From UHGV virus genome UHGV-0335973: 38,029 nucleotides of DNA. The stretch is one strand, 5' to 3'. The translations under genes were made by a program, and so were the position numbers. This document shows positions 14,019-15,332 of the stretch, piece after piece (the stretch's first letter is position 1; every line of letters begins with the position of its first letter). The DNA is from a virus. Under the pieces are notes generated by a model, which did not search any database, was not told the DNA's origin, and saw only the letters and a program-made list of their open reading frames with translations.

Positions 14019-15332
14019 ATGATTGTTATCCCGATTAACCGAATTGAAGATAAGGTTGCTCAACAACCTGATATCACTGTTGGTCGTCACTTCATTGAAC
14101 AGTTGATTAACAACAACTTGATTCCAGACTGTATTTGTCCCATCATCACTGGTGGGGCTGTTCGTGATGCTGTTCTTAATAATAGAGCACCTCATGACAT
14201 TGATATCTTTATTGTCAGAGGACAGGCACCAAGAACTCGAGATACATTTATCCGCCATGACCAGTGGCAAGATCTCGGACGAGAGGTTGAAAGTAACGTG
14301 AAAGAGTGGCTTGAGTCTCAAGGTATTGAGTACTCTTCCCTTCTGGCTGAAGCTACAAATGAAGCCTACGCTGAAGGCTCTTTGTTAACATTCACTGATA
14401 TTATTGAATTTCAGTGGAATGGGGTTCGAATCCAATTCATGTTTAATTATCCTACTTCTATTGAAGAGGTTATGGATAATTTTCCTATGATGTGCCGTGG
14501 TGCGATGACTCTTGACAACCTATTTATGACCCCTCATGGATATCTGTCTATGACTTCTCCTTGTCCAGTAGTTGTCTCTGCTCGTGAAATTAAGTATGTT
14601 CATAAGAAGTGGCCTAATTCACAGGTGTTGAGATTCTCCTCTACATCCGCTGCGCTCCAATATATGGCCCACTCTCGGTACCTCCCTACACCTCAACCGA
14701 TTAATCATCTGGTTGATGAACGGGGTCAGGTTACTTATGCTGAGGATACGACAAGTCCCTCGTATTGTGTTGACCGAGACATGAGTCGATTCTTTGGTAT
14801 ACCTTACGAAGAGATTCAGTTAATGTCAACCCTTCATGGCTCTAGCCGGATTCATGCGTATTGGTCTGAAGGGTTGACAAACCTAACAACCAATACAGGA
14901 GGAGACCTACTTGGTCGAGAAGACGAGCCTAATCAACATAACGCAATTGAAGGGGTTTTTGTAGCCCCTGCAATGCGTCGAGCACAAGAGTCACGAAGAG
15001 TAAGCCCTACTCGTAGAACATCTTTTGAAGAAGCTCTTGGTATTACAAGTGATTCTATGGAGAGGTGGATGGCTAGTCCTTCTCGTGGTAGACCAAACGG
15101 CTTCAACGTTAGTGCACGTCAGTTCTCTGGTCAGGGTTTCGCTGTTGGTGATATCAGCGCACCTGTTAGGGCTGTGTGGACCGATGAAGGTGTGGCCCAA
15201 GATTTGGGAGATAGTCTCGCTGATCGCTTTATTGCTAACAACCCTGAAGTATTAGAACCTCAAACCCGTACAGTTCGGTTTGCCGATGAAGCGGGTCGTG
15301 GAATCTCTTTTGACATGGAAACAAATAACTAA
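14019..15332 (+). CDS. nucleotidyltransferase (pol beta superfamily, CCA-adding/poly(A) polymerase-like head) with disordered C-terminal half
   Basis: ITGGAVRDAVL...HDIDIFI matches GGxVRD...DxD head-domain motif; ATG at 14019 preferred over track start 13962. Confidence 0.5.
   Translation: MIVIPINRIEDKVAQQPDITVGRHFIEQLINNNLIPDCICPIITGGAVRDAVLNNRAPHDIDIFIVRGQAPRTRDTFIRHDQWQDLGREVESNVKEWLESQGIEYSSLLAEATNEAYAEGSLLTFTDIIEFQWNGVRIQFMFNYPTSIEEVMDNFPMMCRGAMTLDNLFMTPHGYLSMTSPCPVVVSAREIKYVHKKWPNSQVLRFSSTSAALQYMAHSRYLPTPQPINHLVDERGQVTYAEDTTSPSYCVDRDMSRFFGIPYEEIQLMSTLHGSSRIHAYWSEGLTNLTTNTGGDLLGREDEPNQHNAIEGVFVAPAMRRAQESRRVSPTRRTSFEEALGITSDSMERWMASPSRGRPNGFNVSARQFSGQGFAVGDISAPVRAVWTDEGVAQDLGDSLADRFIANNPEVLEPQTRTVRFADEAGRGISFDMETNN

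What the first reader, a model, noticed from the sequence alone, without database searches (positions are those of the whole stretch)
14019..15332. CCA-adding/poly(A) polymerase-like nucleotidyltransferase with long disordered tail
The GGAVRD...DIDIF head-domain motif is characteristic of tRNA nucleotidyltransferase-type enzymes. A phage copy could repair tRNA 3' ends damaged by host anticodon or acceptor-stem nucleases (a counter-defence role), or act as a different nucleotidyltransferase. The C-terminal ~200 residues are Ser/Gly/Pro/Arg-rich and look disordered.
Basis: partly seen in the sequence, partly recalled or inferred. Interest (0 to 1): 0.5.

Follow-up and report, generated by a model that had tools for sequence, protein, structure and literature searches.

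The report
Gad2-like phage nucleotidyltransferase, not CCA-adding
This gene of a phiEco32-like coliphage encodes a stripped-down relative of tRNA CCA-adding enzymes that lacks their tRNA-binding parts and most resembles Gad2, a phage enzyme that disarms the bacterial Gabija defence, so it is more likely a counter-defence enzyme than a tRNA repair enzyme.

Summary
The ORF is real (14019-15332, +, 437 aa). It is the ortholog of phiEco32 gp73 (95% identity), already annotated "nucleotidyltransferase". [quoted passage not shown] It is not a canonical member of that family. Only about 30 residues (motif A) align by sequence. The third catalytic carboxylate is an invariant Gln. Motifs B and D are replaced, and there is no tRNA-binding body/tail. 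The fold ends near residue 290, and an Arg/Ser/Gly-rich, lysine-free, largely disordered tail follows, under purifying selection. The family is tiny: 32 clusters among 1.8 billion representatives, all Gordonclarkvirinae-like phages. The gene always sits between the PolA exonuclease subunit and dCTP deaminase. Its nearest sequence relatives are small nucleotidyltransferases encoded beside the DNA polymerase gene in T7-like phages, and Gad2, the anti-Gabija protein. Evidence for the Gad2 link is a weak Pfam PF26128 hit, hhalign E 6e-5, and shared signature residues including the Gln. The best reading is a Gad2-like counter-defence enzyme with unknown substrate (confidence about 0.4). tRNA repair, a replisome or DNA-modification role, and a pseudoenzyme remain open.

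The parts
14019..15332 (+). Complete ORF: 437 aa plus stop. Ortholog of phiEco32 gp73 and member of phrog_12715.
14019..14888 (+). Folded catalytic domain, residues 1-290. It consists of a class II-like head, a short helical neck-like part, and a family-specific helical extension that ends at the W282-S-x-G-L286 motif.
14151..14210 (+). Motif A: G45-G46-A-V-R49-D50 ... D60-I-D62-I-F64. It carries the two catalytic carboxylates and is invariant across the family.
14433..14435 (+). Gln139, invariant. It occupies the position of the third catalytic carboxylate, which is Asp in the T7-like phrog_1614 relatives and Gln89 in Gad2.
14481..14501 (+). F155-P156-M-M-C159-R-G161. This stretch stands in place of class II motif B (RRDFTINA) and corresponds to F106-D..C111-M-G in Gad2.
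14583..14615 (+). R189-E-I-K192-Y193-V-H-K196-K197-W-P199. This stretch stands in place of class II motif D (EDxxR). It has the same spacing as Gad2 R152-x-x-K155-Y156-x-x-K159.
14889..15212 (+). Disordered segment, residues 291-398. Arg/Gly/Ala/Ser-rich with no lysine.
   Evidence: pLDDT below 50. Composition. dN/dS 0.14-0.30.
15213..15329 (+). C-terminal element, residues 399-437. Conserved within Kuravirus, with a low-confidence helix plus beta-hairpin. It may be a partner-binding module.
13460..14017 (+). Upstream gene: the 3'-5' exonuclease subunit of the split PolA. Its stop codon lies 1 nt before the nucleotidyltransferase ATG (ATGTAAAATG).
15342..15875 (+). Downstream gene: dCTP deaminase. 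This neighbour is invariant across the whole family.

Best explanation
The gene encodes a minimal, phage-specific offshoot of the class II (CCA-adding / poly(A) polymerase) nucleotidyltransferases. It belongs to the same clade as Gad2, the anti-Gabija enzyme of SPbeta-like phages, and as the small nucleotidyltransferases encoded next to the DNA polymerase gene in T7-like phages.

Shown:
- The fold, the intact G-G and D-x-D nucleotide/Mg site, and the replacement of the third carboxylate by an invariant Gln.
- The loss of motifs B and D and of the tRNA-binding domains.
- The lysine-free disordered tail.
- The fixed position of the gene in the replication module.

Inferred:
- The protein is made together with the replisome and binds an NTP or dNTP.
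- It carries out, or at least initiates, a non-canonical nucleotidyl transfer.
- The product or modified target keeps a host defence that senses phage replication from firing. The candidate is a Gabija-type defence, which combines an OLD-family nuclease with a UvrD-like helicase.
- The Arg/Ser/Thr-rich tail supplies low-affinity binding to nucleic acid or to a partner protein, in place of the missing body/tail domains.

The acceptor substrate is unknown.
For: - Gad2 link by Pfam: Pfam PF26128 (Gad2) is precomputed on 31 of 44 close homologs. It is marked 'weak' on P0001, which is 95% identical to the window protein, and on the distant member P0080. All 120 bona fide Gad2 homologs listed carry it.
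- Gad2 link by profile: hhalign of the family against a 120-sequence Gad2 profile gives Prob 65%, E 6e-5. Gad2's at-least-95%-conserved residues align as G31G32, D45xD47, Q89, F106..C111, P146xV148, R152xxK155Y156xxK159 to G45G46, D60xD62, Q139, F155..C159, P183xV185, R189xxK192Y193xxK196.
- Bridging family: Gad2 proteins and the gp73 family both hit phrog_1614. Family against phrog_1614 gives Prob 84.5%, E 7e-6, and phrog_1614 against class II gives Prob 95.8%, E 7e-9.
- Gad2 function: knockout in SPbetaL7 makes the phage sensitive to Gabija, and a homolog co-expressed with Gabija abolishes the defence.
- Published annotation: homologs of a T7-like phage nucleotidyltransferase are reported as annotated 'Gad2 family'.
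- Core-gene status and synteny.
- Phenotype: Gordonclarkvirinae are unusually resistant to host immunity and no known mechanism accounts for it.
Against: - The Gad2 link is weak at sequence level. The Pfam hit is only 'weak' and is absent for Suseptimavirus homologs. Cross-HMMER scores are at most 17 bits. The exhaustive HMM search retrieved no Gad2 protein at E<=1e-3.
- Gad2's conserved C-terminal half (about 200 aa, lysine-rich) is absent here.
- Gad2's own mechanism is unknown in the sources I could read.
- No paper in the library tests Gabija against these phages.
- The gene lies in a replication and nucleotide-metabolism module, not an anti-defence island.
- The Gln at the third-carboxylate position could mean the protein is not catalytic.
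Confidence: 0.4

Rival explanations
1. RNA 3'-end nucleotidyltransferase. It would repair tRNA CCA ends damaged by host nucleases, or tail RNAs as poly(A) polymerase does, with the Arg-rich tail holding the RNA.
For: The closest solved folds all act on RNA 3' ends. Motif A is of the CCA/PAP type. The Arg-rich tail recalls the basic C-terminus of PcnB (my own knowledge). A related T7-like nucleotidyltransferase is toxic when overexpressed.
Against: Motifs B and D, the third carboxylate and the body/tail domains are all missing. Bona fide phage CCA enzymes form a separate family found in large, tRNA-rich phages. There is no tRNA in the window and Kuraviruses carry 0-1 tRNA genes. The gene is never next to RNA repair genes.
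Confidence: 0.2
2. Replisome accessory or DNA-directed enzyme. It would work with the phage PolA, for example by adding untemplated nucleotides to DNA 3' ends or by taking part in a covalent DNA modification that protects against restriction, as the BASEL authors speculate.
For: The gene is translationally coupled to the PolA exonuclease subunit. The order primase/helicase - exo - nucleotidyltransferase - dCTP deaminase is kept down to 25-30% identity. The related phrog_1614 genes abut the DNA polymerase gene, upstream or downstream, in four Autographiviridae subfamilies. Nine of 26 family members end in W/F/Y (P about 7e-5), as does the phage helicase (...SPW); T7 gp4 and gp2.5 are also built this way (own knowledge). 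These phages resist restriction although EcoRV sites are not avoided.
Against: No known DNA modification pathway uses a class II-type nucleotidyltransferase. ThyX, dCTP deaminase and a dNMP kinase point to ordinary dTTP supply, not a dU genome. phrog_1614 genes are patchy and host-linked among T7-like phages, which fits an accessory rather than a replicative role. The window protein itself does not end in an aromatic residue. In compact phage genomes adjacency is weak evidence.
Confidence: 0.2
3. Pseudoenzyme. It would be a nucleotide-binding scaffold or sensor that has lost catalysis (Asp to Gln at the third metal ligand) and acts through its tail and binding partners.
For: Invariant Gln139 sits where the T7-like relatives keep Asp. 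Motif B is lost. The tail is conserved under purifying selection.
Against: G45G46, R49D50, D60 and D62 are invariant in all 26 cluster representatives. Functional Gad2 also has the Gln. A conserved acidic residue, D/E127, on the neighbouring strand could compensate.
Confidence: 0.1
4. Maker of decoy cyclic or linear nucleotides that jam host nucleotide-sensing effectors, as described for MNT-type phage nucleotidyltransferases.
Against: Those enzymes have a GS-x-AY..SDxD site and are MNT-like, whereas this protein has GGAVRD..HDIDIF. There is no PADLOC or CD-NTase profile match.
Confidence: 0.05

Closest known systems
Gad2 (Gabija anti-defence 2; Pfam PF26128), from SPbeta-like Bacillus phages and a Brevibacillus prophage
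   Same: Both are phage-only nucleotidyltransferases with G-G and D-x-D motifs. Both have Gln at the third-carboxylate position, F-[DP]..C.G in place of motif B, and P-x-V...R-x-x-K-Y-x-x-K in place of motif D. The window family gets weak Pfam Gad2 hits. Both families bridge to phrog_1614.
   Different: Identity is about 18% and the profile-profile probability only 65%. Gad2 has a conserved, lysine-rich C-terminal domain of about 200 aa (K 10.4%), whereas this protein has a helical extension plus a lysine-free disordered tail (K 1.1%). Gad2 sits in an anti-defence locus; this gene sits in the replication module. Activity against Gabija has not been tested here.
phrog_1614: small (176-203 aa) nucleotidyltransferases of Autographiviridae, annotated 'tRNA nucleotidyltransferase' in Pectobacterium phages
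   Same: This is the best non-self profile match (2e-7 to 4e-10 by HMM; hhalign Prob 84.5%, E 7e-6 over 153 columns). The genes abut the PolA gene in a T7-type replication module. Function is unknown.
   Different: These proteins keep Asp at the third catalytic position and a motif-B-like F-D-C-N-I-N. They have no tail and normal lysine content. They are patchily distributed, whereas this gene is present in all 98 Gordonclarkvirinae-type phage records with a match.
[quoted passage not shown]
   Different: The score is below the Pfam threshold. The third carboxylate is Gln, motif B (RRD) and motif D (EDxxR) are absent, and there are no body/tail tRNA-binding domains.

Membership tests
Class II CCA-adding enzyme / poly(A) polymerase | Motif A: GGxVRD followed by DxD | tested here: met
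   GGAVRD at residues 45-50 and DIDIF at 60-64. The profile against the PDB aligns 27 residues to CCA enzymes at E 0.003.
Class II CCA-adding enzyme / poly(A) polymerase | PF01743 head domain at Pfam's gathering score | tested here: not met
   18.1 bits against a cut-off of 23, covering only profile positions 3-49 of 126. Fifteen of 26 family members give only weak hits at E<=0.1, the best at E 2.5e-4.
Class II CCA-adding enzyme / poly(A) polymerase | Third catalytic carboxylate on the strand after the DxD strand | tested here: not met
   Gln139 is invariant and aligns to the Asp of phrog_1614 relatives. The mapping to the class II Glu is indirect, via phrog_1614 and strand order.
Class II CCA-adding enzyme / poly(A) polymerase | Motif B (RRD, ribose recognition) and motif D (EDxxR, base templating) | tested here: not met
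   F-P-M-M-C-R-G and R-E-I-K-Y-V-H-K-K stand in their places. hhalign to a class II profile aligns only 31 columns.
Class II CCA-adding enzyme / poly(A) polymerase | Body and tail domains that hold the tRNA | tested here: not met
Class II CCA-adding enzyme / poly(A) polymerase | CCA or poly(A) addition to RNA 3' ends | not testable with these tools
   Needs an enzyme assay.
Gad2 (PF26128) | Match to the Pfam Gad2 model | tested here: inconclusive
   Precomputed hits on 31 of 44 close homologs. The hit is marked 'weak' (E between 1e-5 and 1e-3) for P0001 and P0080 and is absent for Suseptimavirus homologs. The local Pfam copy lacks the model.
Gad2 (PF26128) | Profile-profile similarity and the conserved residues of the nucleotidyltransferase half of Gad2 | tested here: met
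   hhalign Prob 65%, E 6e-5. Gad2 G31G32, D45/D47, Q89, F106/C111, P146/V148 and R152/K155/Y156/K159 align to identical residues of the family. The probability is moderate and the residue matches were read from a low-mact alignment.
Gad2 (PF26128) | Conserved C-terminal domain of Gad2 (about residues 200-394) | tested here: not met
   There is no alignable counterpart. A lysine-free tail replaces a lysine-rich domain.
Gad2 (PF26128) | Inhibition of Gabija defence | not testable with these tools
   Known only for SPbetaL7 Gad2 and a Brevibacillus homolog. No paper in the library pairs Gabija with these phages.
phrog_1614 small T7-like nucleotidyltransferases | Profile match over the head domain | tested here: met
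   2.1e-7 over residues 42-156. hhalign Prob 84.5%, E 7e-6, 153 columns.
phrog_1614 small T7-like nucleotidyltransferases | Gene directly beside the PolA gene | tested here: met
   Here the gene is 1 nt after the PolA exonuclease subunit. In phiAS7, VLCpiA1b, PP47 and S2 it is beside the DNA polymerase gene.
phrog_1614 small T7-like nucleotidyltransferases | Full D-D-D triad and a minimal size of about 180-200 aa | tested here: not met
   Gln replaces the third Asp, and the protein is 437 aa with an extension and tail.
MNT-type phage nucleotidyltransferases that make decoy cyclic dinucleotides | GS-x-AY[GAN]T-x4-SDxD active site | tested here: not met
   The sequence reads GGAVRD..HDIDIF. The defining motif is taken from the paper.

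The most novel reading that the evidence does not exclude
Gad2, the Gordonclarkvirinae gp73 family and possibly the T7-like phrog_1614 proteins form one clade of replisome-coupled minimal nucleotidyltransferases. In this reading the unusual Asp-Asp-Gln site of Gad2 and gp73 catalyses a non-canonical transfer, for example nucleotidylation of a DNA end, of a host protein or of a small molecule, that blinds nucleases which sense phage replication (Gabija and other OLD-family systems). The enzyme would be tethered at the fork by a lysine-free disordered tail. This would give the still-unknown mechanism of Gad2 and would explain part of the broad immunity resistance of these phages.
Probability: 0.12. 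Interest if true: 0.75.

Novelty: new variant of a known kind. Interest (0 to 1): 0.45.

Why it matters
The gene is present in all 98 phage records of this therapeutically used coliphage group in which a homolog was found. These phages are notably resistant to host immunity, and no mechanism is known for that. If the Gad2 link holds, three things follow. It points to a concrete experiment on model phages that already exist (BASEL Bas86-94): knock the gene out and plate on Gabija-carrying hosts. It extends Gad2-type counter-defence from Bacillus phages to enterobacterial phages. It also supplies a much smaller natural variant, with a conserved core of about 215 residues and shared Asp-Asp-Gln signature residues, for working out what Gad2-type enzymes do chemically. 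It further corrects a recurring annotation ("class II CCA-adding enzyme", "tRNA nucleotidyltransferase") that the sequence does not support.

Tried and rejected
- **First AlphaFold2 run.** Using only Kuravirus and Suseptimavirus sequences gave a useless model (pLDDT 43). The second run, with the diverse alignment, was used instead.
- **Single-sequence comparisons.** hhalign against E. coli Cca, PcnB and one Gad2 sequence gave only motif A at low probability. Profiles on both sides were needed. hhalign -glob gave a nonsense alignment.
- **Databases with no result.** NCBIfam and PADLOC gave only chance-level Cmr3 hits. phmmer against the PDB gave only chance hits in the tail. The afdb50 fold library was unavailable.
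- **Other sequence features.** There was no Rfam match, no tandem repeat, and no excess of promoter- or terminator-like sites in or around the gene. There is no tRNA in the window.
- **Second DNA polymerase.** I considered whether the protein could be the missing polymerase partner of the exonuclease subunit. I rejected this because a PolA polymerase gene exists elsewhere (phiEco32 gp53; window 22208-24758).
- **dU genome.** The BASEL suggestion is unlikely because ThyX and a dNMP kinase are encoded.
- **Papers not held.** The Nature version of the Gad2 paper and the Iyer/Aravind amidoligase paper were not available. What is said here about Gad2's mechanism rests on the preprint only.
- **Lysine depletion.** Ideas are noted in the notebook but none could be tested.

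Full report
**What the window is.** The window is a phiEco32-like coliphage (genus Kuravirus, subfamily Gordonclarkvirinae). Bases 13400-15900 are 95.6% identical to phiEco32 in reverse orientation. The finding is the ortholog of phiEco32 gp73, a 437-aa protein annotated "nucleotidyltransferase" in RefSeq.

**Checking the observation.**
- The ORF runs from ATG 14019 to TAA 15332. The ATG lies one base after the stop of the upstream 3'-5' exonuclease gene (ATGTAAAATG).
- GGAVRD is residues 45-50 and DIDIF is residues 60-64.
- The gene is real. It matches phrog_12715 end to end at 3e-243 and is found in 98 phage records. dN/dS is 0.13 for the core and 0.2-0.3 for the tail.
- AlphaFold2 failed with a shallow alignment (pLDDT 43). 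With 26 diverse family members it gave a confident fold for residues 1-290, disorder for 291-398, and a low-confidence helix plus hairpin at 399-435. The disordered part is therefore about 110-150 residues, not 200.
- The disordered part is Arg/Ala/Gly/Glu/Ser-rich and only 5% Pro.
- No RNA family, tandem repeat or unusual promoter or terminator signal overlaps the gene.

**The family.**
- An exhaustive profile search of 1.84 billion representative proteins found only 32 clusters.
- In cultured phages the family occurs only in the 98 Gordonclarkvirinae-type records from E. coli and Shigella. The more distant members come from uncultured phage contigs of up to 88 kb.
- The conserved core is about residues 1-215.
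- Invariant residues are G45, G46, R49, D50, D60, D62, F64, Y117, I128, Q139, P156, Y193 and K197. Position 127 is always acidic (D or E).
- Everywhere, down to 25-30% identity, the gene order is GGACT-like gene, primase/helicase, PolA exonuclease subunit, this gene, dCTP deaminase, then thioredoxin and ThyX.

**Relation to CCA-adding enzymes.**
- At sequence level only motif A is shared. The PF01743 score is sub-threshold. The PDB profile search aligns 27 residues. hhalign against a class II profile I built from E. coli Cca, PcnB and six phage enzymes aligns 31 columns.
- In that class II alignment the third carboxylate (E/D-x-x-x-x-R), motif B (RRDFTINA) and motif D (EDPLRxLR) are obvious. 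In the gp73 family their places are taken by an invariant Gln139, by F-P-x-x-C-R-G, and by R-[DE]-x-x-Y-x-x-K-K.
- There are no body/tail domains.
- Genuine CCA-adding enzymes occur in 492 phage records, typically large genomes, and never in this group.
- Membership in the CCA/poly(A) polymerase family is therefore not supported, although descent from it is.

**Closest relatives.**
- The best non-self PHROG is phrog_1614. Its members are 176-203-aa proteins present in 177 Autographiviridae records.
- In four subfamilies that gene sits beside the DNA polymerase gene, upstream in phiAS7 and PP47 and downstream in VLCpiA1b and S2. In three of the four it directly abuts or overlaps it; in S2 a small ORF intervenes.
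- A paper on Pectobacterium phages noted their patchy, host-linked distribution and called them tRNA nucleotidyltransferases without a functional test (PMC7693777).
- Profile-profile comparison links the gp73 family to them (Prob 84.5%, E 7e-6, 153 columns) and links them to class II enzymes (Prob 95.8%, E 7e-9).
- They keep Asp where gp73 has Gln139.

**The Gad2 lead.**
- The precomputed Pfam column showed PF26128 on 31 of 44 close homologs. A later lookup named it: Gad2.
- The hit is marked "weak" for the 95%-identical P0001 and for the distant P0080. It is absent for Suseptimavirus homologs.
- My local Pfam copy lacks the model, since true Gad2 proteins do not hit it there. That explains.
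- Gad2 is the second anti-Gabija protein of Yirmiya et al. Knocking it out makes SPbetaL7 Gabija-sensitive. A Brevibacillus homolog abolishes Gabija defence. AlphaFold predicts a nucleotidyltransferase domain. The mechanism is not described (bioRxiv 10.1101/2023.05.01.538930).
- I took the verified homolog's sequence from the paper's supplement, collected 120 Gad2 homologs, all carrying PF26128, and compared profiles. The result was Prob 59-65%, E 6e-5 to 9e-5.
- Gad2's residues conserved in at least 95% of sequences line up with family-conserved residues of gp73:

| Gad2 | gp73 family |
|---|---|
| G31-G32 | G45-G46 |
| D45-x-D47 | D60-x-D62 |
| Q89 | Q139 |
| F106..C111 | F155..C159 |
| P146-x-V148 | P183-x-V185 |
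| R152-x-x-K155-Y156-x-x-K159 | R189-x-x-K192-Y193-x-x-K196 |

- The odd Gln at the third-carboxylate position is thus shared with a protein known to be functional.
- Gad2 also hits phrog_1614.
- Against the link: plain HMMER cross-scores are at most 17 bits, the big search found no Gad2, and Gad2's lysine-rich C-terminal half has no counterpart here.

**The tail.**
- The protein has 5 lysines in 437 residues (1.1%), the lowest of 38 ORFs in the window (mean 6.45%). There are none after residue 197.
- Across 26 cluster representatives the post-core regions, which cannot be aligned with one another, contain 0.5% Lys against 9.4% Arg.
- phrog_1614, class II enzymes and Gad2 have normal or high lysine content.
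- Nine of 26 members end in W, F or Y (P about 7e-5). The phage primase/helicase ends in ...SPW or ...LPF in every lineage, like the C-terminal tips of T7 gp4 and gp2.5 (my own knowledge). The window protein itself ends in ...FDMETNN.
- I have no tested explanation for the lysine avoidance.

**Interpretation.**
- I rank a Gad2-like counter-defence enzyme first (0.4). In this reading the protein is made with the replisome, binds a nucleotide at the conserved G-G/D-x-D site, and acts on an unknown acceptor so that a replication-sensing nuclease defence is not triggered.
- The rivals are an RNA 3'-end transferase or tRNA repair enzyme (0.2), a replisome or DNA-modification factor as the BASEL authors speculate (PMC11990801) (0.2), a pseudoenzyme (0.1), and a decoy-nucleotide maker (0.05; that published family has a different active-site motif).
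- No paper in the library connects Gabija with these phages.
- The gene is a new variant of a known kind: a Gad2/phrog_1614-type nucleotidyltransferase with a different C-terminal architecture and a fixed place in the replication module.

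Noticed in passing
window 10892-13466: The primase/helicase is a single 596-aa gene in phiEco32. Here it is split into a primase part (10892-11830) and a helicase part (12552-13466) by an HNH endonuclease ORF (11919-12419). This looks like a homing-endonuclease or intron-type insertion.
   Followed up: partly
window 22208-24758: The PolA polymerase gene is a single 614-aa gp53 in phiEco32. Here it is split into 22208-23560 and 24237-24758 by an endonuclease VII-like ORF (23674-24180).
   Followed up: partly
whole window and the phiEco32 genome (L001+L002): CCWGG (Dcm/EcoRII site) is extremely avoided: 8 sites in phiEco32 against about 200 expected, and 2 in the window against about 85. 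PstI, SacI and BamHI sites are absent and GATC is at about half the expected count. EcoRI (12) and EcoRV (36) sites are not depleted, although the BASEL paper reports strong RM resistance.
   Followed up: partly
window 2500-3471, 4280-5997, 8553-9746, 21778-22191: Several other ORFs are also lysine-poor (2.2-2.9% K against a window mean of 6.45%). They include the amidoligase ORF (4894-5997) and the RimK-like ATP-grasp ORF (8553-9746).
   Followed up: no
window 14019-15332 against phiEco32: The gene looks mosaic. The core (residues 1-215) is almost identical to phiEco32 (dS 0.02), but residues 216-398 have dS 0.24-0.37, which suggests a recombination breakpoint inside the gene.
   Followed up: no
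window 13377-13466 (C-terminus of the helicase part): The primase/helicase ends in an acidic tail with a terminal aromatic residue (...NQADGASPW). This is conserved as ...SPW...RPW or ...LPF in every related locus where the helicase C-terminus is intact, and it recalls the T7 gp4 C-terminal tail that docks on the DNA polymerase.
   Followed up: partly
window 13977-14006: A sigma-70-like site (TTGACC, 18-nt spacer, TATATT) lies inside the 3' end of the exonuclease gene, just upstream of the nucleotidyltransferase ATG. The SU7 record annotates a promoter at the same relative position. The number of such sites in the region is no higher than chance.
   Followed up: no
window 33763-38016 (- strand): A 1417-aa ORF on the opposite strand at the end of the window, with the GC skew reversed. 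It probably corresponds to the large phiEco32 gp26 (hypothetical protein), but this was not examined.
   Followed up: no
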